NCBI GenBank assembly: GCA_964503955.1
Contig: CAZDCG010000001.1
Location: forward strand, 316,210 to 380,209
Length of the DNA stretch: 64,000 nucleotides
Source: an uncultured Gammaproteobacteria bacterium
GTDB taxonomy: Bacteria; Patescibacteriota; Patescibacteriia; VMEV01; CAYQCH01
Direction of reading: 5' to 3'
Of the stretch, positions 4,619 to 61,190 are shown piece by piece. The position numbers were made by a program, and so were the translations under genes. Every line of letters begins with the position of its first letter. Position 1 is the stretch's first letter. The notes beneath the pieces are model-generated. The model was not told the DNA's origin. It saw nothing but the letters and a program-made list of their open reading frames with translations, and searched no databases.

Positions 4619-5125
4619 ATGAAAAAGCTCGCCCTGCTCGTGGTTTTAGTCGCCATTATCACCATCGTTCTTTTTGCCATGCCACAGAAAAATACTCCAA
4701 CCGCTGTCGATGAGAAGAACACGGCCTATACCATCGATGGACGAAGCGTGCCCCTGATAAACGGAGCCAGCGAACAAGAGCATTCCACAGTTCGCTACTT
4801 TGGCAATGAAATCCGCAAAGACCTAAACGGCGACGGGAAAGAAGATATCGCCTTTCTCCTCACCGAAGACAGCGAAGGCTCAGGAACGTATTTCTACCTC
4901 GTAGCCGCAATCGCTTCAGACAACGGCTATGTCGGATCAAACGCTTACCTGCTTGGAGACCGCATCGCCCCGCATTCGACCGAATCCGGCCCTGGCCTGG
5001 CCGTTATCGTCAACTATGCCGACCGCCTGCCTGACGAATCTTTTACCGCCCAGCCCTCGGTTGGAATGTCCGCGCAGCTGGTGCTTGATCCGGAGAGTTT
5101 GACTTGGAGTAATGAGAACGGGTAA
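4619..5125 (+). CDS. secreted hypothetical protein (signal peptide)
   Basis: MKKLALLVVLVAIITIVLFA signal-like N-terminus; a terminator hairpin (gacccacc...gcgggtc + T-run) lies ~100 nt downstream. Confidence 0.5.
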   Translation: MKKLALLVVLVAIITIVLFAMPQKNTPTAVDEKNTAYTIDGRSVPLINGASEQEHSTVRYFGNEIRKDLNGDGKEDIAFLLTEDSEGSGTYFYLVAAIASDNGYVGSNAYLLGDRIAPHSTESGPGLAVIVNYADRLPDESFTAQPSVGMSAQLVLDPESLTWSNENG

Positions 5126-15128: not shown

Positions 15129-15739
15129 GACGGCCCCTTTCTTATTTTTGCCGAATCAACCATCATGCGGATGCAAACGATAAACGTCAACGAAACAGGG
15201 CCTTGTTTTTGACAAAATGTGATGACGAAAGCCCGTGGGGGGGCCAGGTTTCTAAAACAAACGAACTTTTCAGACTCATAGAAAATGACTATCTTCACAT
15301 CGTCACCCCCGCGGAGAAAGTTACTCTTTGCGAAGCAAAGTCTAAACATCGCCAGCGGGGGTCTCATTCTTTAAGAGGCATCGAACAGCCCCCCTCACTC
15401 AGTTGATCTCTTTCGATGCTTGATCCCGTCCCCCCTAAACAGGGGGAAGAGTAGGTGGAGGTATACGGAGAAGCGGAGGGATTATAAAGCCTATTCGGGC
15501 GCGGGGCTCCCTCCTTCGCTAAAGGCTTCGGCGGGCACGCTGTCTCCGCCCGGCACTATTACGTGAAATGGTAAAAATGCTTCACTGTATTGAGCTCCCA
15601 AAGGAAAGATCTGAAACCTGAATTCTGAATTCCGGATCTCTATCTGAGGCGGCTCAGAGTCAGAATTCCGATCCAGATTTCAGAATCCAGAGAGAATCTT
15701 CATTCTGACTGCCAAACGATTCCCTAAGAAAGCACGAAC

Positions 15740-25709: not shown

Positions 25710-26855
25710 ATGGCTTCAGACGATCTCCTCTCCCGCTTTGACGCTTTGCTCGCGCCCTATGCCGTGCACAATGCAGGCGACCATCACCGCGCGTACAAAG
25801 AAGACGCACATCCCGACAAACTGCCGTTCGCGCGCGACCGGGATCGTATCGTGCATTCCAAGGCATTTCGCAGACTCAAACATAAAACCCAGGTAATCGT
25901 CAGCCCAAAAGACGATCATATCCGCGACCGCTTAACTCATAGCCTTGAAGGGGCCCAGATCGCGCGCAGCCTTTGCCGTTCCCTGCGGCTCAACGAAGAT
26001 CTAGCGGAAGCGGCCATCCTTGCCCATGATCTTGGCCATCCCCCGTTCGGCCATGAAGGCGAATACGCGCTGCATGAAATGCTTGAGCCGCTCGGATTTG
26101 CTTTTGATCATAATGCTCATGGCGAGCGCATCGTTACCTTGCTTGAGAAACAATATCCGGATTTTCCCGGATTGAACCTGACGCGTGAAACGCTGGCGGC
26201 TATTCGCAAACATCACGTACCGTGGGAAGATCCAAAAGCCACGCTGCCGCACCAGGCAAGCATTGAAGCGCAAATCGTCAATCTCGCGGATGAAATCGCC
26301 TACTACTCGCATGATATCGACGACGGGCTGCGCGCGCATTTGCTGAGAATCGAAGACCTGCTTGAATTGCAGATCGGCCGGGCCGTGCACAAAGTGATTG
26401 AAAAGCGCTATCCAAACCTTACGACCCATGACCGGCTCTATCGGCCGCAATTCGTCCGTTTCGTGATCCACCTGCTGATTGCTGACATTGTCAAAACAAC
26501 GGAACGGAATGTGCGCGACAAACAAATCTCTTCTCTGGCTGATGTCTACGCGCTTGATCATCCGGTCGCATCCTACAGCAAGCAGATGGATGACATGACC
26601 CAGGAACTGAGAAACTACCTGTATAAAACGTTCTATAGCTCTGAACCCGTTCGACGTTTCACGCAAGAAGGCCGCGAGCTTTTGCAGGAATTGTTTACGC
26701 AGCTCTATCAACGCCCGGAACATCTTCCCCAGCATATCCGCGAGCAGATCGACACCCTTGAACCGCGAGCCATTGTGGTCAAAGACTATATCGCGGGCAT
26801 GACCGACCATTTTGCCAAGGAGATGGTGTATAAGTTGAGAGGAAGCTTGGTATGA
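25710..26855 (+). CDS. dgt: dGTPase-like HD-domain triphosphohydrolase
   Basis: HSLEGAQIARSL...HDLGHPPFGHEGE HD motif of the dGTP triphosphohydrolase family. Confidence 0.85.
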   Translation: MASDDLLSRFDALLAPYAVHNAGDHHRAYKEDAHPDKLPFARDRDRIVHSKAFRRLKHKTQVIVSPKDDHIRDRLTHSLEGAQIARSLCRSLRLNEDLAEAAILAHDLGHPPFGHEGEYALHEMLEPLGFAFDHNAHGERIVTLLEKQYPDFPGLNLTRETLAAIRKHHVPWEDPKATLPHQASIEAQIVNLADEIAYYSHDIDDGLRAHLLRIEDLLELQIGRAVHKVIEKRYPNLTTHDRLYRPQFVRFVIHLLIADIVKTTERNVRDKQISSLADVYALDHPVASYSKQMDDMTQELRNYLYKTFYSSEPVRRFTQEGRELLQELFTQLYQRPEHLPQHIREQIDTLEPRAIVVKDYIAGMTDHFAKEMVYKLRGSLV

Positions 26856-27280
26856 CGGGTACAAATCACCAATCGGATACAAATTTACAAATATCCGGCG
26901 GGAAAGTCATTCACAAAGAACTAAGTTATACGATCGTAGGAATCCTGTTTGATGTTTACAATGAGCTTGGATATGGGCATAAAGAGAAGTATTATGAAAA
27001 CGCAATTGCCGTTGCTTTTGATACGAGGGGGATTAGTTATGAAAGACAAAAAAGAACGCCACTTTTCTTTCAAAATGCAAAAATAGGTGATTATTATTTA
27101 GATTTTCTCGTAGAAGAGAAAATTGTTTTAGAATTAAAGCGGGGAAATCGTTTCCCAAAATCACACATTGATCAAGTTATGGGTTATCTGAAACAGACGG
27201 GACTTCAACTGGCCATTCTCGCGACATTTTCTGTTGACGGTGTTAAGTTTCTAAGAGTTCTAAATGGAGTTAAAGAGTAG
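26852..27280 (+). CDS. GxxExxY family protein (PD-(D/E)XK-like; rRNA-IVS-associated family)
   Basis: ...ELSYTIVGILFDVYNELGYGHKEKYYENA...YYLDFLVEEKIVLELK... matches the GxxExxY family; the gene is bounded by ~36-bp terminal inverted repeats. Confidence 0.8.
   Translation: MTGTNHQSDTNLQISGGKVIHKELSYTIVGILFDVYNELGYGHKEKYYENAIAVAFDTRGISYERQKRTPLFFQNAKIGDYYLDFLVEEKIVLELKRGNRFPKSHIDQVMGYLKQTGLQLAILATFSVDGVKFLRVLNGVKE
26858..26895 (+). repeat. Left terminal inverted repeat of the GxxExxY cassette (gggtacaaatcaccaatcggatacaaatttacaaat)
   Basis: Reverse complement of 27280-27315 with 3-4 mismatches; near-identical copy at 48427-48460. Confidence 0.8.
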
Positions 27281-27315
27281 ATTTGTAAATTTGTAATGTA
27301 TTTGTGATTTGTACC
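27280..27315 (+). repeat. Right terminal inverted repeat of the GxxExxY cassette (atttgtaaatttgtaatgtatttgtgatttgtaccc)
   Basis: See the left repeat at 26858-26895. Confidence 0.8.
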
Positions 27316-27329
27316 CTTAATCATCCGCT

Positions 27330-28010
27330 ATGAAAGGAAAATTGATCGTCATCGACGGTATAGACGGTTCAGGAAAAGGCACGCAATTTGAGCTGCTGCT
27401 TGAAAAGATGGACCAGCTTGATATCCCCGTACAAACAAAAGACTTTCCGCAATACGGCAAAAAATCCGCCGGCGCGGTGGAAGAATATCTGAATGGCAAA
27501 TACGGCGACGCAAAGGAAGTGGGACCGTATCGGGCTTCCGTTTTATTCGCGGTTGACCGCTACGACGCAAGCCACGAGATGAAAAAGTGGCTGGCAGATG
27601 GAAGCCATGTCATCTGCAACCGGTATGTCACAGCCAATATGGGGCATCAGGGCGGAAAGATCCGCGACAAAGAAGAACGGATGCGCTATTTTGAATGGCT
27701 CAAGGAATTAGAATTCGGAATCTTTGATATCCCAAAACCCGACTTGAACATTTTTTTGCATGTTCCTCCTGAAACAGCCATTGAGTTGATCGAACAAAAA
27801 GGTTTTCGCGAATATATCGGAGGCGAAGGGAAAGATTTGCATGAAGGTGATTTACAGCATCTCAAAGAAACCGAGGAAGTATTTCTCCAGCTCGCTGATA
27901 TCATGCCAAATGCGCATATTATCTACTGCGCGCCGGAAGGCAAACTCCTCTCCCGCGAAGAGATTCATGAGAAGATTTGGGAAGTGGTGAGGAGGGAAAT
28001 TAACGTATAG
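27330..28010 (+). CDS. tmk: thymidylate (dTMP) kinase family protein
   Basis: P-loop VIDGIDGSGKGTQ, FAVDRY (DRY/H motif) and lid-region features of Tmk. Confidence 0.75.
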   Translation: MKGKLIVIDGIDGSGKGTQFELLLEKMDQLDIPVQTKDFPQYGKKSAGAVEEYLNGKYGDAKEVGPYRASVLFAVDRYDASHEMKKWLADGSHVICNRYVTANMGHQGGKIRDKEERMRYFEWLKELEFGIFDIPKPDLNIFLHVPPETAIELIEQKGFREYIGGEGKDLHEGDLQHLKETEEVFLQLADIMPNAHIIYCAPEGKLLSREEIHEKIWEVVRREINV

Positions 28011-28635: not shown

Positions 28636-28957
28636 CCTCTTCTTCTCGTCATTCCGGCGGATGAAGAATTCCTTGCAAAACAAGGCTTGCACCGGACAAG
28701 GCGAGAATCTCGAACTTCATCATCGTAGAGATTATTTATCGTTATAGATACCACCCCCAGCCCCTCCTTAAAGGAGGGGTGTTTGCTTTATTAATACTAA
28801 GTGGAATATATAGCCCCAAGAGCGACCCCACCTTATAGGAGGGGGCGCGACAAAGAAATTTTGTTAACAATCATCCCGCTGGTGGGGCGGTACTCGAAAA
28901 AAGAAAGCTCCATAAACGACTCGACCCCGCACAGTGCGTGAAAGCACCGTACGGGGT

Positions 28958-31672: not shown

Positions 31673-32164
31673 ATGTCACAAACCGTTGCCGATGCCATGA
31701 ACGAGCGCGTCCACGGCAATACCATCCAGGATAAAATCGACGAAGATTACAAAGCGGCCTTCAAAGCCAAGGACGAACCGAGATTCAAGGCGCTACGCCC
31801 CGTGCTTGCCAAGCTGAAACAGGAAACCATTGACCGCCGCCATGAATTATCCGATGAAGAAATCCAGCAGGTATTGCGCACGGAAATCAAAAGCCGCAAA
31901 GACGCGACTGAACAGTTTAAACAAGGCGGCCGCGAAGATCTCGTTGAGCAGGCGGCCTATGAAATTTCCTTGATTGAAAGCTATCTGCCGGCCCAGATGC
32001 CAGACGAACATCTTGAAGCGATTGTCCGCGAAACCCTGGCTGCGATTGGCGCCTCCTCTCCTGCCGATATGGGCAAAGCCATGGGAGCTGTCATGGCCAA
32101 AGTGAAAGGCCAGGCTGATGGAGGAAGAGTAAAGGCTATGGTGGAGAAAGTGCTTAATGGATAA
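31673..32164 (+). CDS. yqeY: GatB/YqeY domain protein
   Basis: ...RFKALRPVLAKLKQETIDRRHELSDEEIQQVLRTEIKSRKDA...GKAMGAVMAKVKGQADG typical of YqeY; start at MSQTVAD. Confidence 0.8.
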   Translation: MSQTVADAMNERVHGNTIQDKIDEDYKAAFKAKDEPRFKALRPVLAKLKQETIDRRHELSDEEIQQVLRTEIKSRKDATEQFKQGGREDLVEQAAYEISLIESYLPAQMPDEHLEAIVRETLAAIGASSPADMGKAMGAVMAKVKGQADGGRVKAMVEKVLNG

Positions 32165-32165
32165 A

Positions 32166-32203
32166 GCTAAAAAGCTGAAAAACTCAAAAGCTTAAAAAGG
32201 CGC
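32166..32203 (+). repeat. Left inverted repeat flanking the four-helix-bundle gene (aaagctaaaaagctgaaaaactcaaaagcttaaaaagg)
   Basis: Reverse complement of 32655-32705 (gtctttatttttttagtttttcagctttttagcttttcagttttttg) matches with a few mismatches. Confidence 0.65.
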
Positions 32204-32276
32204 GGATGGTCCGGGCCTTTTTTGTGAATACGTGCTATAATTAATGCAAATTTAATTCTCTCTGCCCACACCTTTA

Positions 32277-32654
32277 ATGAATCATTTTATGAGTGGCGGA
32301 GCCTATAAGCAATTAGAAGACCGGACGACCATGTTTGCGATACAGGTTATCCGGTTTTGTCGTTCTGTAGGAGAAAAGCACTTATCAACAAGCATTGTTA
32401 ATCAAATAATACGCTCCGCGAGCTCTGTAGGGGCCAATTACAGAGAAGCAAACGAAGCCAAATCTCACAAAGAAAAGCTATACTTTCTTTATATCGTCAA
32501 AAGAGAGCTGAAAGAAACACAGTATTGGCTAGACGTGCTTGAGGAATTCGAAAATCCAACCATCGATTCTCAACGTAAAAACTTGCGAAAAGAGGTTACA
32601 GAATTACTAAATATTTTTATGAGTATCATTTTTTCCTTCCAAAAGAAAAAGTAA
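32277..32654 (+). CDS. four-helix-bundle protein (23S rRNA intervening-sequence protein family)
   Basis: ...IRSASSVGANYREANEAKSHKEKLYFLYIVKRELKETQYWLDVL... is the characteristic family signature. Confidence 0.8.
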   Translation: MNHFMSGGAYKQLEDRTTMFAIQVIRFCRSVGEKHLSTSIVNQIIRSASSVGANYREANEAKSHKEKLYFLYIVKRELKETQYWLDVLEEFENPTIDSQRKNLRKEVTELLNIFMSIIFSFQKKK

Positions 32655-32705
32655 GTCTTTATTTTTTTAGTTTTTCAGCTTTTTAGCTTTTCAGTTTTTT
32701 GAACT
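32655..32705 (+). repeat. Right inverted repeat flanking the four-helix-bundle gene
   Basis: See 32166-32203. Confidence 0.65.
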
Positions 32706-36667: not shown

Positions 36668-36812
36668 AGAGTAGAGGGCATCTTAGAGGAAATCGGGTTT
36701 GAATTCAAGCGGGAAGACGCACAGACATAACAGACTCTACAGACGCACAGACTGTTTTTGGAAAATGTGATTTGTCTGTGAGTCTAAAACGTCTGTGAAT
36801 CTGTGCGTCTGC

Positions 36813-46691: not shown

Positions 46692-46947
46692 AAAAAACGA
46701 CGTTTGGAGTGGATACTAGATTAGCATAGATGGAATAGACGTACCAGACGTTTTCAATTTATTGCTCTTGTATCTTAATACTGGATATCTAGAACTCCGG
46801 ATCTCTGAATACCTTATTGAAAAATGTAAGGCTTCAGATGCAAGATACAAGATTCCAGAAATCAGACGCTAGATTGAAAGCAAAAATCCTTCCCCGCGCC
46901 TCCTCGCGGGAAAGGATATTGCCTCCTAAAAATTGTGTTGTTGCCCG

Positions 46948-47841
46948 TTACGACTGCGTGCCGGCGGGTACATCTTCAAGCGCGCTGCGGAATCCGAATT
47001 CGCGCAGGCACCAGCGCTCAACCGATCCCCCTTTCCGCACCGGATTATCCGCCTCCTGCGGATCAGCATCCTGAGGCCAGACAGCGTCCGGCGTGAAGTT
47101 GGTGAACCAGACAAGACTTACCTTGGTCCAGCTCGCCTTGGGCACGCCATGCTCCACGGCGGACGAGCGGTTGCCACAGAGCCAGAGCGAAAGCGACTTC
47201 CCGAAATTGTGGACGATAAGAGGCCCCGGGCCTTCCACCTCCACATCAAAGAGCACTCCGTTCCGGCGGATCTGAAACGGCTTTTGAAAAACCAATCCAG
47301 CGACCGCGCTGGTATCAAGGTGCATCTTGGAAAAGCCGGTCTTGGCCTGGTACCGATTGATCCGTCCGGCCGAAAAGACTCCATGCGCGCTCAGAGCTTC
47401 GCGCAGCTCCTGCACGTCCCGTCCGTAGAAGCGGGCGGCGGCGCTGGCCGCTGCCACATTGGAACGATGCAGCAGCATGCTCACCCTGAGCAGACGGTCG
47501 GTAGACGCGCGCAGGGTCTCGGGAAATCCTCCCTCCATTTGGAAACTGTAGTAGTCCTTGTTCTCCGGCTCTTGCTCGCCCTCCTGAGTCTCCCTGCCGG
47601 TAGCCGTGGGACCTCGCATGCCATGATGCGTGCGCGGACATTGCCGGAGAATCTCATTCCACTCCTCAAAGAGGCGGTAGCAGAACTCCATGGTGCGGGA
47701 GAAGTCTGTTCCCCGAAACGGCAGGTGGGAGACAGCCGTTACCCCCCATTCGTGAAGCTCTGCGCCGGCTTGGGCGGCCTCAGTGCTGTTCACGTCTTCA
47801 AGCAGCGGAAACGGTCTGGCCTTGAGCATGAGTCGAGGCAT
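46948..47841 (-). CDS. hypothetical protein in a GC-rich patch (start at MPRLMLK after an AGGAGGG SD)
   Basis: Clean ORF in a GC-rich region with an SD; no family recognised. Confidence 0.45.
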   Translation of the reverse strand: MPRLMLKARPFPLLEDVNSTEAAQAGAELHEWGVTAVSHLPFRGTDFSRTMEFCYRLFEEWNEILRQCPRTHHGMRGPTATGRETQEGEQEPENKDYYSFQMEGGFPETLRASTDRLLRVSMLLHRSNVAAASAAARFYGRDVQELREALSAHGVFSAGRINRYQAKTGFSKMHLDTSAVAGLVFQKPFQIRRNGVLFDVEVEGPGPLIVHNFGKSLSLWLCGNRSSAVEHGVPKASWTKVSLVWFTNFTPDAVWPQDADPQEADNPVRKGGSVERWCLREFGFRSALEDVPAGTQS

Positions 47842-47998
47842 CAAGCCCTCCTTTTCGAGAGGAGAATAGCATGCTCGAACAGACCTTGTCATTAGTTGCG
47901 AGCTGCGGGTTACAAGTTGAAGGGCAAGCAATGGATGAATCTCTCATAAACAAATCCAGGGATTTTGCCCTGGATTTTCCGGTTTTTTCTAACAATCC

Positions 47999-48295
47999 CT
48001 ATTTCCTCCTCACCGTTCTTTTCCTGGTCGTCTTTTTTTCACCGAAGTACTCAATCGCGCTTTGAATGGCATTGGCTGCCACGCCGATATAGGTTCCGGT
48101 TGAATGCAGCTTGTCTTTGGCCATATCAAGCACCTCATCCGCTTTCTGCATCACTGTGGTGACTTTCTCTACCATATACACTGCGTTTCGCAGCATGCGC
48201 ACAACATAGTAAATCGCCCAGGCGAGAAAGACCGTCAGCAAAGCAACAGCGCCGGCGAGAGTAAGATACAAAATATCGAGAGTGGTGTTGACCAT
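47999..48295 (-). CDS. small membrane protein, hypothetical
   Basis: N-terminal TM helix and a helical C-terminus. Confidence 0.4.
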   Translation of the reverse strand: MVNTTLDILYLTLAGAVALLTVFLAWAIYYVVRMLRNAVYMVEKVTTVMQKADEVLDMAKDKLHSTGTYIGVAANAIQSAIEYFGEKKTTRKRTVRRK

Positions 48296-48426
48296 ATGTA
48301 TTTGTTTTTGTCTAAAGGTAGTATATCAATGTTGCTTATTTCTGTCAGGGGTACAGATCACGAATGCATTACAAATAGACAAAGCCTGTCAAAGCTGACG
48401 ACAAACCGTTTGTGAGATGCAGCCCA

Positions 48427-48460
48427 TTTGTAAATTTGTATCCGATTTGTGATCTGCCCC
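48427..48460 (+). repeat. Solo copy of the GxxExxY-cassette inverted repeat (atttgtaaatttgtatccgatttgtgatctgccc)
   Basis: Near-identical to the rc of 26858-26895 and to 27280-27315; lies just downstream of pheT. Confidence 0.7.
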
Positions 48461-48475
48461 CTCCATCATGCTCGT

Positions 48476-50866
48476 TTATCTCAACCGAGCCCCCAGTTCA
48501 TTCTCCAGCTTCTCCACAATGCGCTTATGCAATGTCTCAGCCTCGCTCATTTCAAGGGTTTTTTCATCGGAACGGAATTCAAGATGAAAGCCAAAACTCT
48601 TTTTGCCGTCTCCATGATGATACACATCAAAAAGCTCAATGTTTCGCAGCAGGTCGGTTCCGGCCTGCAAAACGGTTTGCTCCACCTTGCCCCAGGCCAT
48701 GTCTTCAGCCACCGTTACGGAGAGATCCAGCTGAATCGGCGGAAATTTTGGAATAGGGGTATAGGTGAGCGCATGCTTTGAGCGCGCGACAAGCTCCCTG
48801 AAACGAAGCTCAAAGGCCACGGCCGGACGCTTGAGCCCGACGGACTTCGCTGTTTCATTGCTCACAACGCCAACAGAAACCAAAGGCTCACCATCAATCA
48901 GATAGGCGAAACTGTTTGACGCCTGCAGCAAAGAAGCATCCGATCCAGTCGTGAAATCCGCTCGTTTCTGCAAACCAAGTTTCTGCAGAATAGCCAGAAC
49001 AATTCCCTTGGCTTCTCGAAGCGACCGCTCAAGATCATCCGTGATCACCACGCCGGCCATTTCCGGGTATTCGTCGGGCAAACCTCCCTTTTTCTTTGGA
49101 AGATAGACATGGCTGATCTCAAAAAGACGCTGCACAGGCGCGACTCCCTGGTTAAGGGCCGCCACTTCAAGCAGGCTTGGCAGCAAACGCGTGCGCATGG
49201 CCACATGCTCCTCATCAAGCGGGTTGAGCAGACGGATCGCTTCGCTTGTCTGACGTTTTGATAAAGCAAGCAGCGGCTCGGAGACCATGGAATAGGTGTA
49301 CAGCTCGGTATAGCCGGCTCCTTTCATAAGAGTCTTTACTTTGTCTTCCGCTTCAAGCTGCTTGTCAAAAACCGGCATGGGCATTTCTCCGCTTGGCAGG
49401 GCGCTTGGAATATGGTGATAGCCGTATAGACGGGCTACTTCTTCAATCAAATCTTCTTCAATGCTGACATCCGTCTGCCGCCAATGCGGAACCTGGCAGA
49501 CAAGTTTGTCTTTGGCTGCTTTCATGGAAAAGCCAAGCGCCTTGAGTTGGTGAGCGACCTGCTTCTTGTTGAGCTTGGCGCCAATAACCTGCTCCGCGCG
49601 CGCAAAGCTCATGCTCACCTTTGCCGGTTTATAGGTTTGATACCCTGCCTCAACAAGATCGCTTGCAACATGCGCGCCGGTGATTTTCACAAGCAATTCA
49701 ACCGCGCGCAGCATGGCTTCTTTGCTCATCTGAGGAGACACATTGCGAGTATAATACGCGCTTGCGTCTGAAAATTTATCCAAAGCCATGGCGGTTTTTC
49801 GCACGGCCTTGCTGCTCCAGTCAGCCGCTTCAAGCAAAACAGTTGTCGTTGACTCGCTCACGCCGCTTTCAAGCCCGCCTTTGACTCCGCCAAGCGCGAG
49901 CGCCTTCTCTTCATCGGCCACAACCGGCATAAATGATTTGAGCGCATGCTCCATGCCATCAAGCGTTACAAGCTTCTCCCCGTCTTTGGCCGCGCGGATA
50001 ACAAGCTTGCCATCTTTAACGTTGTCATAATCAAACGCATGCAAAGGATGCCCATACTCGCGCATCACATAATTGGTGATATCAACCACATTGTTGATGG
50101 GCGTATGTCCGGCCGCGCGCAGACGGCGCTGCAACCATTCGGGCGAAGGCGCAACTTTTACATTGCTTAAAACCAGCGCGCGAAAACCAAGACATTTTTC
50201 CTTGTCTTTGATAACCACGCCAAGAGGCTTCTTCTCTTTCGTTTTTGATCCTTTTAGTGCGAGTTTTGGCAGGCGCAGTGTTCCGCCCGTAATGGCCGCT
50301 GTTTCGCGCGCCATGCCGACCACGCTGGCCGCGTCAATGCGATTGGTCGTAATTTCAATATCAAAAACCGTGTCATCGAGTCCAAGCGCCTTGGCCATGG
50401 GCGTGCCTGGCTTGGCTTTGAGATGCGAGTAATCGGTTACGCCGTTTGGATTTGGCGATTTGGCAAGACCAATCTCGCTGTCATCGCAGATCATGCCAAA
50501 ACTTTCTTCTCCGCGAATTTTTGCCGGCTGAAGTTCAACCGGATCACCCTCGCCATGCCAGCGCACCATCGCGCCAAGACCGGCAAAGGCGATCTTCATG
50601 CCCGCTTTGATATTTGGAGCGCCGCAAACGACTTTGTGTTTGTCTTTGCCGGTGGACACAACCGCCAGCTGCAGCTTGTCGGCATTGGGGTGCTTGCTGA
50701 TTTCAAGAATCTCTCCAAGCACAATTTTGTCCGAAAGCAATTCAACTTCCGGCAAAATCCGCTCCACGCTCATGGAGTGCAATGATAAGAGTTTTGCCAA
50801 TTCTTTCGCCGGCGTTTTCGTTTTGACGTATTCGTTCAGCCAATTGAGACTAAGTAAGATATTCAT
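48476..50866 (-). CDS. pheT: phenylalanyl-tRNA synthetase beta subunit
   Basis: 796 aa; tRNA-binding, B3/B4, B5, catalytic-like and FDX-ACB domains in the PheT order. Confidence 0.95.
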   Translation of the reverse strand: MNILLSLNWLNEYVKTKTPAKELAKLLSLHSMSVERILPEVELLSDKIVLGEILEISKHPNADKLQLAVVSTGKDKHKVVCGAPNIKAGMKIAFAGLGAMVRWHGEGDPVELQPAKIRGEESFGMICDDSEIGLAKSPNPNGVTDYSHLKAKPGTPMAKALGLDDTVFDIEITTNRIDAASVVGMARETAAITGGTLRLPKLALKGSKTKEKKPLGVVIKDKEKCLGFRALVLSNVKVAPSPEWLQRRLRAAGHTPINNVVDITNYVMREYGHPLHAFDYDNVKDGKLVIRAAKDGEKLVTLDGMEHALKSFMPVVADEEKALALGGVKGGLESGVSESTTTVLLEAADWSSKAVRKTAMALDKFSDASAYYTRNVSPQMSKEAMLRAVELLVKITGAHVASDLVEAGYQTYKPAKVSMSFARAEQVIGAKLNKKQVAHQLKALGFSMKAAKDKLVCQVPHWRQTDVSIEEDLIEEVARLYGYHHIPSALPSGEMPMPVFDKQLEAEDKVKTLMKGAGYTELYTYSMVSEPLLALSKRQTSEAIRLLNPLDEEHVAMRTRLLPSLLEVAALNQGVAPVQRLFEISHVYLPKKKGGLPDEYPEMAGVVITDDLERSLREAKGIVLAILQKLGLQKRADFTTGSDASLLQASNSFAYLIDGEPLVSVGVVSNETAKSVGLKRPAVAFELRFRELVARSKHALTYTPIPKFPPIQLDLSVTVAEDMAWGKVEQTVLQAGTDLLRNIELFDVYHHGDGKKSFGFHLEFRSDEKTLEMSEAETLHKRIVEKLENELGARLR

Positions 50867-50883
50867 ACATGCTAATATTGCTC

Positions 50884-51278
50884 TTCACTACAAATTACAA
50901 ATTTTACGACGAATCTACAAATCGAGATTCAATACACGCATAAACTTACACCGGAACTAGTGAAGTTTGCCAGAATCGCCAATTGTGTTTTTGTCGTTTT
51001 TAAATAATCCTTGACCTGTTGGATATTTTTTCGAGAAAAATGATTACCTTGCTTTAACTCAAGGATAATTTTTCCTTCGACCAAAAAATCAAGATAGAAT
51101 GTCCCTATTTTCTTTTCTTTAAAGAACAAACGAGCGTGTAACTGACGTTCATATTCCATTCCCTTTTCATCAAGTTATAGACTTCAAAGAGAATTTCTAC
51201 AATCTGATAACTCAATTCACTGTAAATTACCTTCTGTTCTGACACTTGTAGATTTGAAGCCAATTTGTAATTCGTAGT
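50884..51278. mobile_element. Degenerate GxxExxY cassette (inverted-repeat bounded) inserted between pheS and pheT
   Basis: Inverted repeats cactacaaattacaaatt...aatctacaaatc (50884-50925) and cttgtagatttg...caatttgtaattcgtagtgg (51245-51278) flank a truncated GxxExxY ORF. Confidence 0.65.
50929..51159 (-). pseudogene. truncated GxxExxY-family gene (C-terminal half only)
   Basis: MEYERQ...FYLDFLVEGKIILELKQGNHF...QVKDYLKTTKTQLAILANF aligns to the C-terminal half of 26852..27280; the N-terminal GxxExxY region is missing. Confidence 0.6.
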
Positions 51279-51285
51279 GGAGAAA

Positions 51286-52347
51286 TCAAAATTGCTCCAA
51301 AAATCTCAAATCATTTCGATACAGTTCGCGCAAGTCAGGAATCGAAAGCCCTTCGCGCATTAACGCGACGCGCTCAACCCCCCAGCCGAAAGCGAATCCA
51401 TTGTACTTCTTCGTGTCAATCTTTCCCGCTTTGAGTACATTTGGATGCACCATGCCGGATCCTCCAAGCTCAAGCCATCCTTCCTTACAGAATTTGCAGC
51501 CTTCACCTTTGCAAAGTCCGCAGGTGATATCGATTTCAAAGCTCGGCTCCGTAAACTTGAAATGAAATGGCCGGAACCGGATTTCACGATCCTGCCCGAA
51601 AAAGGATTTGGCAAAATATTCCATCACGCCTTTCAGATGGCTGATACTTACGCCCTCATCGATGTACAAACCCTCAAACTGATGAAACATTTGCGTATGC
51701 GTCACGTCGGCCTGGCGGCGATAGCATTTGGCAATATTGATCATGCGGATGGGCAGCTCTCCTTTTTCCATTTCACGCACCTGCGCATTAGACGTATGCG
51801 GCGTAAGGATGACGCGTTCTCCTTTGGCATCCGGTTCGGTGACAAAGAAGGTTTCCCAGTCATCGCGCGCGGGATGATCCTGCGGCATATTCAGCCCTTC
51901 AAACGCGTAGTAATCTGATTCCACTTCAGGATAGCGGACGCGCGCAAACCCAATGCGTTTGAAAATGTCGGTGATTTCACGGATCGTTTGAGTGACCAAA
52001 TGCAAATGGCCTTGCGCGGGAGCAAGCGGCGGCAAGGTCAAATCAACCGCCAGCGAAGCCTCTTCCGCTTCCTTCTTTTTTCCCTCGTAAGCGGCTTCAA
52101 GCGCTTTTTTCAGCTCATTCGCCAATGGACCGATTTCACGTTTTTCTTCCACCGGCAGCCCGCCAAGCGACTTCATAATTTCCGTGAGCTTTCCCTGTTT
52201 GCGGCCGAGATATTGAATATGCCACGCGTCAAGCGCTTTGAGATCTGTCACTTGTTTAAGCGCATCAAGCGCCTCTTTTCGAAGTTGGTCTAACTTGTCT
52301 TTCATAATGATTTGGTAACATCTGGAAACGTATGGTACGTCTGGCAT
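51286..52347 (-). CDS. pheS: phenylalanyl-tRNA synthetase alpha subunit
   Basis: Class II motifs; ends ...LRFLEQF followed by a TGA stop, which shows TGA is a stop in this genome. Confidence 0.95.
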   Translation of the reverse strand: MPDVPYVSRCYQIIMKDKLDQLRKEALDALKQVTDLKALDAWHIQYLGRKQGKLTEIMKSLGGLPVEEKREIGPLANELKKALEAAYEGKKKEAEEASLAVDLTLPPLAPAQGHLHLVTQTIREITDIFKRIGFARVRYPEVESDYYAFEGLNMPQDHPARDDWETFFVTEPDAKGERVILTPHTSNAQVREMEKGELPIRMINIAKCYRRQADVTHTQMFHQFEGLYIDEGVSISHLKGVMEYFAKSFFGQDREIRFRPFHFKFTEPSFEIDITCGLCKGEGCKFCKEGWLELGGSGMVHPNVLKAGKIDTKKYNGFAFGWGVERVALMREGLSIPDLRELYRNDLRFLEQF

Positions 52348-52411: not shown

Positions 52412-52975
52412 ATGATGCCAAAGGAGGAAGAAGTGCTGTGCAAAAACCAATGCGGAAAACCGGAATACCTTGAAGATCTCTGCGAGGATTGCCATAAAGA
52501 GGCAAGACTCAAGGCCATCGAGGAACGAATTCGCCGGGAGGAAAGCGAACTCACGCCGGCAGAAGACAGGAAGCGTGCCGACCTTGCTCTAAAAGAGCTT
52601 GTAAACAATCAGCCTCTTTCAGAGCCGCCGAAGAAAGCCGCGCGGCCAAAAAAGAAGAAGCGGTCAGCGGCAAAATCGGCACAAGCTGCTGCGGTAAAAA
52701 CGAACGAGAAGCAGCCTCGATCCGCGCTAAAGCAGAAGCGAACCAAGCCGACCACGGTTGAATCAACACCCGCCAAGGCAACCTGCCTGGTGCCGGATTG
52801 CAGTGAAGCGCCGGACCGCGACGGTCTTTGCGTCTGCTGCCGCTCCATGCTGATCCTGTGGCGAAATGAGCGCGATCGTCTGGACAAATGCCCCATCCTG
52901 ATTTCGGGCAGCCAGGTGGAGACCTTCAAGCGGCACTTCCCGGATCGCGCTGCCGAAATGGATCCCGGTGCCTGA
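52412..52975 (+). CDS. Cys-module protein with a Lys/Ala-rich linker (probable start at GTG 52433 after AAGGAGG)
   Basis: Two C-x3-C-x7-8-LC-x-x-C-H/R modules (CKNQCGKPEYLEDLCEDCH; CLVPDCSEAPDRDGLCVCCR) of the same type as the downstream gene. Confidence 0.45.
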   Translation: MMPKEEEVLCKNQCGKPEYLEDLCEDCHKEARLKAIEERIRREESELTPAEDRKRADLALKELVNNQPLSEPPKKAARPKKKKRSAAKSAQAAAVKTNEKQPRSALKQKRTKPTTVESTPAKATCLVPDCSEAPDRDGLCVCCRSMLILWRNERDRLDKCPILISGSQVETFKRHFPDRAAEMDPGA

Positions 52976-53067
52976 CAGGTGCCGGGATCTCTTCATTTCA
53001 AAAACCGTTGACAAAAACAATTTTTTGCCGTTCAATAATCTACCGCCTGAAGAGAAAGGAGTGTGAA

Positions 53068-54129
53068 ATGGATTCTGTGTTATCCAGCAGTCACAAGCCC
53101 CTTCCTCAAGGGCGCGACAGGAAACCACGCTGGGAGGTCTGCCGAAACGGCTGCGCCGAAATTGTATTCGCAAACGGTATCTGCATTGACTGTTTTCTTG
53201 GCGGAGTCCACGCTCTTGTTAAGAAACCCGTTTTACAGCCACCAGCACCAGCAAAACCTGAACCACCACTACCGCCGCCCCCACAAGCCTTTTCATGGAT
53301 TTGCGCTCACTGCACAGATCCGGTTTACCGCGGAATTTACTGCAAAGGGCACTGGACTTTGCTTACCCCGTCCTTTTGTGCAAGAGAGGGGTGCCGCAAG
53401 CTCATCGCCGCAGGAGATTACTGCAAAGAGCACTATGAGGAGTGGTGGAAGGAAAGGACCAGAAAGCGCGGGCAAAGCGGCTGTCTAGCGGCTGAAGTCA
53501 AATGCAATCGATCGCATAAGTCTCATGGGTTGTGCGAAAGACATTACAGCCAATTTCGAAAGCACGGCGATACATCCTACCTGCTGCCCCGGCTGCGATT
53601 GAAATGCCGCTTTCCGGATTGCGGCCGGTATCGCGGCTCAGGAGGCTATTGTTCAACGCACGCCGCTCAACTGCGCGCAACCGGAAAAACACGAGCAATC
53701 AGGCCTTCGAAAATGGCCGAATACTGTTCCATGCCGAGATGCGGACAACCCCATCACGCCAAAGGATATTGTCACGAGCACTATGGCAAATTCCTGAGAC
53801 GTAAGGGGAGAACACCCCACCCCGTCTGCGCGCATCCAGGCTGTGAACGGCGCACAACAGAGAAGTATTGCAAAACACATCGCAGACAGTTCCTCAAGCA
53901 TGGCCGCACCACTGACATACGGACAGGCCCCGTACTCTGCGAGATCCCCCAATGCGGAGGCATTCACCGCAACACCGGACTCTGCCGTAGACATACGCGA
54001 GTGCTTGAGCGTCTTGTGCGCCGCATGACGGAAGATTTCCACTGGCCAACCCCCGAGGAGCGCCAGGTTCACGCGATTGCCTTGAGTCATGGATCTCAGG
54101 TTGCAAAACGTGTCATTCTCGTCGCCTAA
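53068..54129 (+). CDS. protein with ~8 tandem C-x2-4-C-x6-9-C-x2-H zinc-finger-like modules
   Basis: Repeats such as CRNGCAEIVFANGICIDCF, CAREGCRKLIAAGDYCKEHY, CRFPDCGRYRGSGGYCSTHA, CSMPRCGQPHHAKGYCHEHY, CAHPGCERRTTEKYCKTHR, CEIPQCGGIHRNTGLCRRHT; AAAGGAG SD. Confidence 0.55.
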   Translation: MDSVLSSSHKPLPQGRDRKPRWEVCRNGCAEIVFANGICIDCFLGGVHALVKKPVLQPPAPAKPEPPLPPPPQAFSWICAHCTDPVYRGIYCKGHWTLLTPSFCAREGCRKLIAAGDYCKEHYEEWWKERTRKRGQSGCLAAEVKCNRSHKSHGLCERHYSQFRKHGDTSYLLPRLRLKCRFPDCGRYRGSGGYCSTHAAQLRATGKTRAIRPSKMAEYCSMPRCGQPHHAKGYCHEHYGKFLRRKGRTPHPVCAHPGCERRTTEKYCKTHRRQFLKHGRTTDIRTGPVLCEIPQCGGIHRNTGLCRRHTRVLERLVRRMTEDFHWPTPEERQVHAIALSHGSQVAKRVILVA

Positions 54130-61112: not shown

Positions 61113-61190
61113 TGTTCACGTGTTAATGAGTTAACGTGTTAACGGGTTTGCCTTGAACGCGTTAACTCATGAACATGCTAACCCGTTAAC

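What the first reader, a model, noticed from the sequence alone, without database searches (positions are those of the whole stretch)
48427..51278. Degenerate GxxExxY cassette splitting the pheS-pheT pair, plus a solo repeat downstream of pheT
pheS and pheT are normally adjacent or overlapping. Here they are separated by ~420 bp containing a 76-aa fragment that aligns only to the C-terminal half of the GxxExxY protein (YLDFLVEGKIILELKQGNHF...QLAILANF). The fragment is bounded by its own inverted repeats (cactacaaattacaaatt.../...caatttgtaattcgtagtgg). A solo copy of the 26.8-kb cassette repeat (atttgtaaatttgtatccgatttgtgatctgccc, 48427-48460) sits immediately downstream of pheT. This is the pattern expected of a mobile or once-mobile element decaying in place. 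It shows the cassettes insert into operons of essential genes without inactivating them.
Basis: seen in the sequence. Interest (0 to 1): 0.6.

Follow-up and report, generated by a model that had tools for sequence, protein, structure and literature searches.

The report
Decayed nuclease mini-cassette between pheS and pheT
The 419-bp gap between pheS and pheT holds a dead copy of a small selfish cassette (a tiny nuclease gene bracketed by inverted arms built from four TACNAAT heptamers), one of a barely described class of elements that come and go at operon junctions in CPR bacteria without breaking the flanking genes.

Summary
The sequence features are real, but two details of the finding are wrong. 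pheS (51286-52347, -) and pheT (48476-50866, -) are intact and 419 bp apart. The gap holds a cassette bounded by inverted repeats. It aligns end to end with the intact GxxExxY cassette at 26.8 kb, not just to its C-terminal half. The N-terminal codons survive in another frame, about 60 nt including the GxxExxY motif are deleted, and a second frameshift sits near the C-terminus.

The "solo" repeat is not solo. It is one arm of a 113-bp hairpin without an ORF (48349-48461), lying 14 nt after the pheT stop.

In 26 non-redundant metagenomic relatives (25 of 29 flank pairs, window copies included, beat all 40 shuffles), the gene is bracketed by arms with the consensus CTACnAAT-TACGAAT-nnnn-TACnAAT-n-TACnAAT. 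These sit between co-oriented genes such as rpsG|fusA. The arms keep the motif rather than base pairing, and show no G:U excess. At the junction holding the intact copy, relatives show an ORF-less hairpin, a possible arm remnant, or nothing.

Best reading: a selfish element resembling rRNA intervening sequences and REPIN elements, caught at three decay stages. Mobility and mechanism are inferred, not shown.

The parts
51286..52347 (-). pheS, intact (353 aa)
   Evidence: TIGR00468 equivalog, 270.4 bits against a cutoff of 237.45. Identical in Logan contig L002.
50882..51283 (-). Cassette C: whole pseudogenised GxxExxY cassette, arm to arm (402 bp)
   Evidence: Aligns end to end with cassette A. 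The minimum-free-energy RNA fold closes it with the arm stem, -108 kcal/mol, z = -5.2. tblastn hits from family members span 50935-51281.
51246..51283 (-). Cassette C 5' arm (TCTCCACTACGAATTACAAATTGGCTTCAAATCTACAA). It starts 2 nt after the pheS stop codon.
   Evidence: (I9).
51174..51236 (-). N-terminal coding remnant QKVIYSELSYQIVEILFEVYN, out of frame with the 76-aa ORF
   Evidence: tblastn gives 58% identity to residues 2-37 of the intact protein. Matches the family consensus KVIYKELSYKIVGILFxVYN.
50929..51159 (-). 76-aa ORF. It is the central and C-terminal part of the nuclease. It keeps D...ExK but lacks helices 1-2 and the GxxExxY motif.
   Evidence: TIGR04256 positions 40-109 of 116, E 3.4e-15. 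59% identical to cassette A's protein. Alignment A1.
50915..50947 (-). True C-terminal remnant KFMRVLNLDL* in the third frame, after a second 1-nt frameshift
   Evidence: Consensus GVKFLRILN. 1-nt gap in the DNA alignment.
50882..50920 (-). Cassette C 3' arm. It ends 15 nt before the pheT ATG.
48476..50866 (-). pheT, intact (796 aa)
   Evidence: TIGR00472 equivalog, 665 bits against a cutoff of 402.65.
48349..48461 (-). Mini-cassette B: both arms (48427-48461 and 48349-48383) around a 43-nt loop with no ORF. It starts 14 nt after the pheT stop.
   Evidence: I3. Fold of -43.1 kcal/mol, z = -2.9. Aligns to cassette A better in minus orientation, score 100.7 against 70. IR score 17.5 against a shuffle maximum of 11.5.
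26852..27321 (+). Cassette A: intact reference copy. ORF 26852-27280 (142 aa); arms 26857-26892 and 27281-27317. The ATG overlaps the stop of the upstream HD-domain dGTPase gene (ATGA). The next gene, tmk, starts at 27330.
   Evidence: TIGR04256 101 bits, PF13366 104 bits. IR I1, 41 nt, 83%. AF2 model pLDDT 87.7, with the arm-encoded residues 1-16 disordered.
32163..32690 (+). Cassette D: the same anatomy with a different cargo and different arms. A four-helix-bundle / 23S_rRNA_IVP ORF (32277-32654) lies between 27-nt arms made of AAAAGCT-type units.
   Evidence: I2, 96% complementary. TIGR02436 and PF05635. Relatives L127, L129, L130 and L076 carry A-rich periodic arms of the same type.

Best explanation
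WHAT IT IS
The pheS|pheT insert (C) is a dead copy of a compact selfish cassette of about 400-470 bp. The 113-bp hairpin after pheT (B) is a derivative of the same cassette without an ORF. The intact form (A, 26.8 kb) has these features:
- One roughly 125-aa minimal PD-(D/E)xK nuclease gene of the GxxExxY family.
- Two inverted arms of about 37 nt around the gene.
- Each arm is an array of four heptamers in a 2+2 layout: CTACnAAT-TACGAAT-(3-5 nt linker)-TACnAAT-n-TACnAAT.

SHOWN
- Arms and gene travel together as one unit. They are found at unrelated junctions in different CPR genomes.
- The unit lies exactly between the stop codon of one gene and the start codon of the next. It is almost always co-oriented with the host operon.
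- Orthologous junctions in relatives are full, reduced to a hairpin, or empty.
- Within this window the three copies are at three decay stages: A intact, C frameshifted and deleted, B without an ORF.

INFERRED
- The heptamer arrays are sequence-specific recognition sites. The likeliest reader is the cassette's own nuclease, acting on DNA as a transposase reads terminal repeats or a RAYT protein reads REP sequences.
- Nuclease-promoted copying or repair spreads the unit.
- Once the nuclease decays, the arms persist for a while as a hairpin and are eventually lost.

WHY IT IS TOLERATED
The insert does not touch either reading frame and is co-transcribed with the operon. In the three window copies the two arms can also pair in the transcript. 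That would fold the insert away and bring the upstream stop next to the downstream start. RNase III processing, as for 23S rRNA intervening sequences, is possible but untested.
For: SAME ELEMENT, DECAYED
- End-to-end DNA alignment of C with A.
- Three reading-frame pieces of one gene.
- Loss of the GxxExxY block relative to 33 homologues.

B IS TWO-ARMED
-.

ARMS BELONG TO THE GENE
- 25 of 29 flank pairs tested (26 metagenomic, 3 from the window) have flanking inverted repeats that beat all 40 shuffles.
- Conserved arm consensus in 22 arms from 14 cassettes.
- TACNAAT arrays number 79 in 180 kb of GxxExxY loci. In the 874 kb of relatives' pheS loci plus the window there are 9, at least 4 of them cassette A itself (window and its Logan duplicate), against 0-5 per shuffle. 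Arm spacing is bimodal: -2 to 62 nt, or 380-520 nt.
- Distant viral homologues (27-36% identity) have no arms. This serves as a negative control.

THE MOTIF IS CONSERVED, NOT THE PAIRING
- The N and spacer positions mismatch between arms 31-48% of the time, while T-A-C and A-A-T are near invariant.
- Of 71 mismatches in 13 clean arm pairs, 12 are G:U-type, 11 are A:C-type and 48 are transversion-type.

PLACEMENT
- The cassette ORF is co-directional with the upstream ORF in 22 of 25 loci.
- Arms abut stop and start codons.
- rpsG|fusA is occupied in several lineages.

GAIN AND LOSS AT ORTHOLOGOUS SITES
The HD-dGTPase|tmk junction is:
- empty in L174 (5 nt);
- 55 nt without arms in L175;
- a possible arm remnant in L176;
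- a 157-nt ORF-less TACGAAT hairpin in L177 (z = -6.1);
- a full cassette in the window.

The pheS|pheT junction has a gap of 30 nt or less in 41 of 74 relatives. Elsewhere it is occupied by other cassettes bounded by inverted repeats.

PROTEIN AND PRECEDENT
- The protein is a confident PD-(D/E)xK fold with D84, E94 and K96 invariant.
- The Coxiella 23S IVS is a 428-nt element with a 28-bp terminal inverted-repeat stem, tandem heptamer repeats and a decaying small ORF (PMC4990558).
Against: - No recent copies exist. A and C are 59% identical at the protein level, and two paralogues on one 565-kb contig are 58% identical. Active intragenomic transposition is therefore not visible.
- There is no consistent target-site duplication.
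- GxxExxY is not a known transposase or homing endonuclease, and its function is listed as unknown (PMC3424549).
- The fold search returns only generic PD-(D/E)xK neighbours.
- That the nuclease reads the heptamers is pure inference.
- Only one ORF-less copy is seen in 64 kb, unlike high-copy MITEs or REPINs.
- The closest relatives available are distant (63-76% protein identity). Because of this, recurrent insertion cannot be separated from ancient insertion followed by differential loss.
Confidence: 0.6

Rival explanations
1. The arms work mainly at the RNA level. The cassette, or at least its stem, is kept because the long hairpin in the polycistronic mRNA is useful. It might be an RNase III processing site, a stabiliser at the 3' end of a transcript, or a device that holds the upstream stop next to the downstream start so that translational coupling of pheS and pheT survives. 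On this view the nuclease gene is a passenger.
For: - All three window copies fold with the arms as the closing stem: z = -2.8 for A, -5.2 for C and -2.9 for B. L177 gives z = -6.1.
- The arms of C are still 91% complementary over 22 nt even though the ORF is dead.
- The arms abut stop and start codons.
- B has a nested terminator-like hairpin followed by a T-rich arm, and sits just before a promoter-like site for the next gene.
- rRNA IVS stems are cut by RNase III (PMC4990558).
Against: - There is no wobble signature: 12 G:U against 11 A:C among 71 mismatches. At N positions the bias is, if anything, towards the antisense strand.
- The N and spacer positions are unpaired 31-48% of the time. 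In many relatives this leaves runs of only 3 A/U-rich pairs.
- The central linker is not complementary in most cassettes examined.
- The same heptamer sequence is kept across cassettes whose proteins are only 45-57% identical. Selection for pairing alone would not require that.
- The terminator and promoter scans were not above chance.
Confidence: 0.2
2. The 76-aa ORF is a functional, deliberately short member of the family, or a distinct small protein. The pheS|pheT spacer would then be an ordinary three-gene operon.
For: - The ORF has an ATG and passes the TIGR04256 cutoff (56 bits against 35).
- It keeps the D...ExK residues.
Against: - Homology continues upstream and downstream of the ORF in the other two frames.
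- It lacks helices 1 and 2 of the fold and the conserved G42/E45/Y48 block.
- Its last five residues (SLCVY) are frameshift products that replace the conserved KFxRxxN.
- 117 of the 120 listed homologues are 125-160 aa (the other three are 123-124 aa).
Confidence: 0.04
3. The inverted repeats are not ends of a mobile unit. They are by-products of local slippage or palindrome formation in AT-rich spacers, and the gene simply sits in a repeat-prone spot.
For: - The arms are periodic and of low complexity.
- Other spacers in the window and in relatives also carry periodic hairpins.
Against: - The same four-unit architecture and heptamer recur around homologous genes at unrelated loci in many genomes.
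- They are absent from the 810 kb of relatives' pheS loci, which hold no GxxExxY homologue.
- Four-helix-bundle genes carry a different arm type of their own.
Confidence: 0.05

Closest known systems
23S rRNA intervening sequences (IVS) carrying a small ORF, e.g. Coxiella burnetii, Leptospira, Salmonella
   Same: - Size is about 400-450 nt.
- Terminal inverted repeats close the element in a stem.
- There is a single small ORF that tends to decay.
- Tandem heptamer repeats sit next to the ORF (GACAGAT in Coxiella).
- Distribution is sporadic and consistent with horizontal spread (PMC4990558).
- Cassette D of this window carries the very protein family named after IVSs (PF05635).
- CPR rRNA inserts are reported to carry 23S_rRNA_IVP and GIY-YIG ORFs (PMC11270868).
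   Different: - These copies lie between protein-coding genes, not inside rRNA. No rRNA was found in the window or in 20 related loci.
- The cargo of A and C is a PD-(D/E)xK nuclease, which was not listed among CPR rRNA-insert ORFs.
- RNase III excision is untested here, and the arms show no RNA-pairing signature.
REP/REPIN elements with their RAYT genes (from my own knowledge: Nunvar 2010; Bertels & Rainey 2011; Ton-Hoang 2012)
   Same: - A small gene is flanked by inverted copies of a short repeat.
- The same repeat also occurs as ORF-less hairpin doublets in intergenic spacers, often right after stop codons.
- In several loci (L089, L090, L102) complete hairpins, rather than single arms, flank the gene.
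   Different: - The protein is a PD-(D/E)xK nuclease, not a HUH/Y1 transposase.
- Several divergent gene copies occur per genome, instead of one RAYT with hundreds of REPINs.
- The arms are arrays of four heptamers rather than one palindrome.
MITEs / Correia elements of Neisseria (from my own knowledge)
   Same: - Short elements bounded by inverted repeats sit in spacers and are co-transcribed with neighbouring genes.
- They form hairpins that RNase III can cut.
- B is the size of a MITE.
   Different: - There is no TA or other consistent target duplication.
- Copy number in the window is low.
- The ORF-bearing partner does not encode a recognised transposase.
Free-standing homing endonuclease genes and their invasion-decay-loss cycle
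   Same: - A small nuclease gene is inserted between conserved genes.
- Presence or absence varies at orthologous sites.
- Degeneration occurs in place.
- PD-(D/E)xK homing enzymes exist; I-Bth0305I appears among the weak fold matches.
   Different: - Homing genes do not normally carry conserved inverted-repeat arms.
- The same cassette type occupies many unrelated junctions rather than one cognate target.
GxxExxY protein family (NCBIfam TIGR04256; Pfam PF13366 PDDEXK_3)
   Same: - A is a full-length member, at 101 and 104 bits.
- The family is large: 7,505 clusters at 50% identity with E of 1e-3 or better.
   Different: - The family is defined on protein sequence only, with function 'unknown'.
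- The arm architecture described here is not part of its definition.
- The arms are absent from distant viral members.

Membership tests
GxxExxY protein (TIGR04256 / PF13366) | Profile score above the curated cutoff over the full length | tested here: met
   - Cassette A: 101.4 bits against 35, profile positions 1-115 of 116. PF13366 gives 104 bits against 22.
- Cassette C's ORF passes the score (56.4 bits) but covers only positions 40-109.
GxxExxY protein (TIGR04256 / PF13366) | The G-x-x-E-x-x-Y motif itself | tested here: met
   - A has G42-H-K-E45-K-Y-Y48. G42 and E45 are at least 90% conserved in 35 sequences.
- For cassette C the feature is NOT met. The block is deleted, so C is a pseudogene of the family rather than a member.
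PD-(D/E)xK nuclease fold | alpha-beta-beta-beta-alpha-beta core with D...(D/E)xK catalytic residues | tested here: met
   - AF2 model pLDDT 87.7. Secondary structure H-H-E-E-E-H-E-E.
- D84, E94 and K96 are invariant.
- Foldseek hits Cas4, lambda exonuclease, Hjc and tRNA-splicing endonuclease.
- Catalytic activity was not tested.
23S rRNA intervening sequence (IVS) | Located inside the 23S rRNA gene (helix 25 or 45) | tested here: not met
   - The Rfam gathering scan finds only one tRNA in the window and nothing in 20 related loci.
- The flanks are pheS/pheT, HD-dGTPase/tmk and rpsG/fusA.
23S rRNA intervening sequence (IVS) | Terminal inverted repeats forming a closing stem | tested here: met
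23S rRNA intervening sequence (IVS) | Excision from the transcript by RNase III | not testable with these tools
   [quoted passage not shown] The mismatch spectrum gives no support for RNA-level selection.
REPIN/RAYT system | Associated gene is a HUH (Y1) IS200/IS605-like transposase | tested here: not met
   The gene is PF13366 PD-(D/E)xK. No HUH family hit was found.
REPIN/RAYT system | Gene flanked by inverted repeats that also occur as ORF-less hairpins | tested here: met
   - B in the window.
- 11 short-spaced arm pairs in the related loci.
- L177.
MITE / DNA transposon | Target-site duplication flanking the terminal inverted repeats | tested here: not met
   - No consistent direct repeat appears across 26 cassettes.
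- Only cassette C has a 10/12 direct repeat: GAGCAATTTTGA at 51286-51297 and GAGCAATATTAG at 50872-50883. This may be chance.
MITE / DNA transposon | Multiple near-identical copies showing recent transposition | tested here: not met
   - A against C: 59% protein identity.
- Paralogues on one contig: 58%.
- B's arms are about 84% identical to A's over aligned columns.
- Only 64 kb of the genome was available.
Free-standing homing endonuclease gene | Presence/absence polymorphism at the orthologous site | tested here: met
   - The HD|tmk junction is full, hairpin, remnant or empty in different relatives.
- The relatives are distant (63-68% identity), so the timing is unresolved.
Free-standing homing endonuclease gene | The enzyme cleaves the empty allele | not testable with these tools
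   Needs biochemistry.

The most novel reading that the evidence does not exclude
GxxExxY proteins are the dedicated nucleases of a previously unrecognised class of bacterial mini mobile elements. The ends of these elements are arrays of four TACNAAT heptamers. The ORF-less hairpins are their non-autonomous derivatives, functionally parallel to REPIN/RAYT but built on a PD-(D/E)xK enzyme. Sister classes carry four-helix-bundle (IVS protein) and GIY-YIG cargos, each with its own arm type. If so, the classical 23S rRNA intervening sequences would be the rRNA-resident subset of a much broader family of cassettes living at operon junctions.
Probability: 0.3. Interest if true: 0.75.

Novelty: new variant of a known kind. 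Interest (0 to 1): 0.5.

Why it matters
- **A function for an unassigned family.** GxxExxY/PDDEXK_3 is a large protein family (about 7,500 clusters at 50% identity) with no assigned function. Tying a CPR subfamily to a fixed arm architecture gives it a concrete, testable role: a nuclease that reads TACNAAT arrays.
- **A wider view of IVS proteins.** The result suggests that "intervening-sequence" proteins, GIY-YIG mini-genes and GxxExxY genes are cargos of one style of cassette. These colonise the few non-coding nucleotides left in streamlined CPR genomes, including junctions inside essential operons such as pheST and rpsG-fusA.
- **Practical use.** The arms are a simple marker for annotating these elements and their pseudogenes. 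They also help avoid calling fragments such as the 76-aa ORF as genes.
- **Caveat.** For the specific finding, the element at pheS|pheT is dead and probably of little consequence to the cell.

Tried and rejected
1. **Known RNA families.** The Rfam gathering scan of the window and of 20 related loci returned only a tRNA.
2. **RNA-level selection on the stem.** The mismatch spectrum shows no excess of G:U. I did not build a covariance model, because the periodic arms make column assignment unreliable.
3. **Target-site duplications.** None is consistent. The 10/12 direct repeat around C is left unexplained.
4. **B as a deletion derivative retaining ORF sequence.** The 43-nt loop has no convincing homology to A or C.
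5. **Solved structures.**
   - The sequence search found none.
   - The fold search gave only generic PD-(D/E)xK neighbours and did not single out Holliday-junction resolvases or homing enzymes.
6. **Phage carriage.** Viral contigs hold only distant homologues without arms.
7. **Closest relatives for exact empty-site junctions.** The best available are 72-76% (PheS) and 63-68% (HD) identical. That is too distant to define insertion boundaries to the base.
8. **Source record.** The protein is in NCBI on a 454,799-bp contig, but no name or accession was returned. A genome-wide census was therefore not possible.
9. **Literature.** Three papers contain "GxxExxY", and none of the two listed titles concerns such elements. 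I found nothing describing these cassettes.


Full report
**1. What is at the coordinates**

pheS (51286-52347) and pheT (48476-50866) both lie on the minus strand. Both are full-length equivalog matches. They are separated by 419 bp (50867-51285).

The 76-aa ORF at 50929-51159(-) matches the GxxExxY family, but only over profile positions 40-109 of 116. Inverted repeats bound the spacer: 50882-50903 and 51262-51283, 22 nt, 91% complementary. With gaps they extend to about 39 nt.

The 34-mer quoted for the "solo" repeat occurs once, at 48426-48459. No chance matches are expected. Logan assemblies from two other runs are 100% identical to the window across cassette A and across the pheS-cassette junction, so this is not an assembly artefact.

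**2. Two corrections to the finding**

*The insert is not just a C-terminal half.*
- Its DNA aligns from arm to arm with the intact cassette at 26852-27321.
- The N-terminal codons QKVIYSELSYQIVEILFEVYN sit at 51174-51236 in a second frame.
- About 60 nt are missing. The missing stretch encodes the conserved ELGYGxxEKYYE block, that is, the GxxExxY motif itself.
- A 1-nt deletion near the end moves the true C-terminus (KFMRVLNLDL*, 50915-50947) into the third frame.
- The 76-aa ORF is therefore what is left open in a gene with at least three lesions.

*The "solo" repeat has a partner.*
- The partner arm is at 48349-48383 (I3).
- The two arms and a 43-nt loop form a 113-bp hairpin of -43.1 kcal/mol, z = -2.9.
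- The non-complementary linker (CGGA on one arm, ATGC on the other) matches cassette A only when B is read on the minus strand. B is therefore co-oriented with pheT and starts 14 nt after its stop codon.

Together with intact cassette A, the window holds three copies at three stages: intact, pseudogene and ORF-less. No further GxxExxY homologue is present in the window.

**3. The organism and the junction**

PheS relatives are Patescibacteria/CPR MAGs, with the best at 76% identity. Among 74 relatives carrying both genes:
- 41 have a pheS-pheT gap of 30 nt or less (median for all 74 is 15 nt);
- 21 have more than 100 nt.

The larger gaps hold a variety of inserts:
- a GIY-YIG gene flanked by its own inverted repeats (L068);
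- ORF-less hairpins of that same repeat type (L003, L005, L035, L042, L064);
- an ORF6N gene with repeated hairpins (L069);
- a PemK/MazF-like gene (L018);
- a GNAT gene (L033);
- small membrane ORFs;
- AT-rich periodic hairpins (L028, L045, L076).

None of these relatives carries a GxxExxY cassette there. The junction is thus a recurrent landing place, and the content in this genome is lineage-specific.

**4. The cassette as a unit**

A metagenome scan returned 44 loci encoding relatives of the intact protein at 39-57% identity. Almost all are bracketed by inverted arms built from a periodic unit. Of 29 flank pairs tested (26 non-redundant metagenomic pairs plus the three window copies), 25 beat all 40 shuffles.

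Aligning 22 arms from 14 cassettes gives the consensus nnnCTACnAAT-TACGAAT-nnnn-TACnAAT-n-TACnAAT. The T-A-C and A-A-T positions are invariant or nearly so.

Arrays of three or more units number 79 in the 180 kb of GxxExxY loci. In the 874 kb of relatives' pheS loci plus the window there are 9, at least 4 of which are cassette A (window and its Logan duplicate L001); shuffles give 0-5. Arm-to-arm spacing is bimodal: -2 to 62 nt (no ORF) and 380-520 nt (ORF).

The unit varies by lineage, with the same variant on both arms:
- ACAAAT here;
- ACGAAT in most loci;
- ACTAAT in some;
- CGCGAAT or CTCGAAT around the most divergent proteins.

Distant viral homologues (27-36% identity) have no arms. Four-helix-bundle (23S_rRNA_IVP) genes, including cassette D at 32163-32690, carry a different arm type that is A-rich and periodic. 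Arms and cargo therefore travel together, and each cargo family has its own arms.

**5. Placement**

Cassettes lie between the stop codon of one gene and the start codon of the next. The arm often overlaps those codons. The cassette ORF is co-directional with the upstream ORF in 22 of 25 loci. rpsG|fusA is occupied in several lineages. Another copy sits between a response-regulator gene and recJ. No rRNA is nearby.

In cassette A the only usable start codon is the ATG that overlaps the upstream stop (ATGA). The first 16 residues are therefore encoded by the arm, and they are predicted to be disordered.

**6. Gain and loss at an orthologous site**

The junction that holds cassette A is HD-domain dGTPase | thymidylate kinase. 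I examined it in four relatives with 63-68% HD identity and conserved synteny:

| Locus | Content of the junction |
|---|---|
| L174 | 5 nt |
| L175 | 55 nt, no arms |
| L176 | 33 nt, containing CTACAAT...TACAAAT (possibly a remnant of one arm) |
| L177 | 157 nt, an ORF-less hairpin of TACGAAT units (-45.9 kcal/mol, z = -6.1) |

Removing GGGTAC...GTACCC from the window leaves a 14-nt spacer. This falls within the range seen in the relatives.

This series across genomes mirrors the A/C/B series inside the window. It is the strongest evidence that these cassettes are inserted and then erode. Because the relatives are distant, repeated insertion cannot be separated from one old insertion followed by differential loss.

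**7. How the arms are likely read**

If the arms were kept for RNA pairing, mismatches should be enriched for G:U on the sense strand, and variable positions should covary. They do neither.
- In 13 clean arm pairs (84.5% complementary), 71 mismatches split into 12 G:U-type, 11 A:C-type and 48 transversion-type.
- The N position of the heptamer differs between arms in 32 of 71 units. Spacer positions differ in 31-48%.
- The central linker is usually non-complementary.

What is conserved is the heptamer sequence and the 2+2 layout, on both arms, across cassettes whose proteins have diverged to about 50%. This points to sequence-specific recognition. The cassette's own nuclease is the obvious candidate reader, but that step is inference.

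The protein model is a confident minimal PD-(D/E)xK fold with invariant D84/E94/K96. Its structural neighbours are generic: Cas4, lambda exonuclease, Hjc, splicing endonuclease. No solved structure is detectable by sequence, and the family's function is recorded as unknown. Some family members are tandem fusions of two domains, which is compatible with a dimeric enzyme.

The RNA-level reading is not excluded. In this window the arms are well paired and close the predicted fold of all three copies.

**8. Comparison with known systems**

The anatomy is closest to 23S rRNA intervening sequences. The Coxiella IVS is 428 nt, closed by a 28-bp inverted-repeat stem, and excised by RNase III. It carries tandem heptamer repeats and a decaying small ORF of the family found in cassette D (PMC4990558). 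CPR rRNA inserts are reported to carry 23S_rRNA_IVP and GIY-YIG ORFs (PMC11270868).

The cassettes here fail the defining IVS feature of lying inside rRNA. Their processing is also untested.

The pairing of an ORF-bearing copy with ORF-less hairpins resembles REPIN/RAYT and MITE systems, but three things differ:
- the enzyme is not a HUH transposase;
- there is no consistent target duplication;
- there are no near-identical copies.

The invasion-decay-loss pattern resembles free-standing homing endonuclease genes, but those lack conserved arms.

I found no paper describing GxxExxY cassettes or their arms.

**9. Verdict**

The interpretation that an element is decaying in place and is tolerated inside an essential operon is supported. 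Mobility and mechanism remain inferred.

The particular copy at pheS|pheT is dead and probably inconsequential. The broader pattern appears to be an undescribed variant of IVS/REPIN-like selfish elements and is experimentally testable. That pattern consists of a fixed four-heptamer arm architecture tied to a large nuclease family of unknown function, sister cassettes with other cargos, and erosion series at orthologous junctions.

Noticed in passing
window 32163-32690: Cassette D. A four-helix-bundle / 23S_rRNA_IVP ORF (32277-32654) lies between 27-nt, 96%-complementary arms made of AAAAGCT-type units. It sits after a YqeY-like gene and is convergent with miaA. L130 (60% protein identity) has the same insertion at the same junction. 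L127, L129 and L076 have arms of the same A-rich periodic type.
   Followed up: partly
window 51286-51297 and 50872-50883: A 10/12 direct repeat flanks cassette C on the minus strand. GAGCAATTTTGA is the last pheS codons plus the stop; GAGCAATATTAG lies just before the pheT ATG. It could be a target duplication that preserved the pheS end, or it could be chance. No other cassette shows such a repeat.
   Followed up: partly
window 48320-48348 and 48383-48407 (minus strand): A promoter-like site (CTGACA-17-TATACT with an upstream TG, 10/12) lies immediately after mini-cassette B, ahead of the 98-aa gene at 47999-48295. A terminator-like hairpin followed by the T-rich arm lies inside B's loop. 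B may double as the operon terminator. Counts in the scan were not above chance.
   Followed up: no
window 28761-28844; L080 around 4785-4900: Hairpins built on CCCCTCCTTnnAAGGAGGGG occur in a window spacer. A very similar motif fills the pheS|pheT gap of relative L080. This is another dispersed hairpin family.
   Followed up: no
window 61114-61182, 15618-15690, 36715-36785: Further intergenic inverted repeats whose arms look periodic: GTTAACG-like, CTGAATT-like and ACAGAC-like units. They may be ORF-less members of other cassette families.
   Followed up: no
window 46933-47931: Two overlapping ORFs of 320 and 327 aa lie on opposite strands between the 98-aa gene and dnaE. Neither has a Pfam hit. 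The closest relative, L003, has an unrelated gene at this position.
   Followed up: partly
window 52412-54129: Two Cys-rich ORFs (187 and 413 aa, with many CxxC / HxxH-like repeats) lie upstream of pheS on the opposite strand. Neither has a Pfam match.
   Followed up: partly
L176 1287-1319; L177 2950-3106: At the dGTPase|tmk junction, which holds cassette A in the window, L177 has an ORF-less TACGAAT hairpin. L176 has a 33-nt spacer with CTACAAT...TACAAAT that looks like a single-arm remnant.
   Followed up: yes
L003, L005, L035, L042, L064, L068 (pheS|pheT gaps): This is a second cassette family at the same junction. It has a GIY-YIG ORF (L068, PF01541 E 1e-16) with arms of the type GTCATCCCGAGCGAAGCG...GAGGGATC. 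Five relatives carry only the ORF-less hairpin of those arms.
   Followed up: partly
loci L006, L010, L013, L020 and about 25 others: In many CPR relatives the PheT alignment starts only at about residue 145-167 of the window's PheT. Whether these PheT proteins lack the N-terminal region or merely diverge there was not examined.
   Followed up: no
record titles of L003-L082: Many contigs whose PheS is closest to CPR sequences carry the title 'uncultured Gammaproteobacteria bacterium'. This looks like a placeholder or mislabel in those MAG submissions.
   Followed up: no
proteins P0183, P0191, P0193, P0195 and similar: Some GxxExxY family members are 250-277 aa and match the query twice. They are tandem fusions of two nuclease domains, which hints that the single-domain proteins act as dimers.
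   Followed up: no
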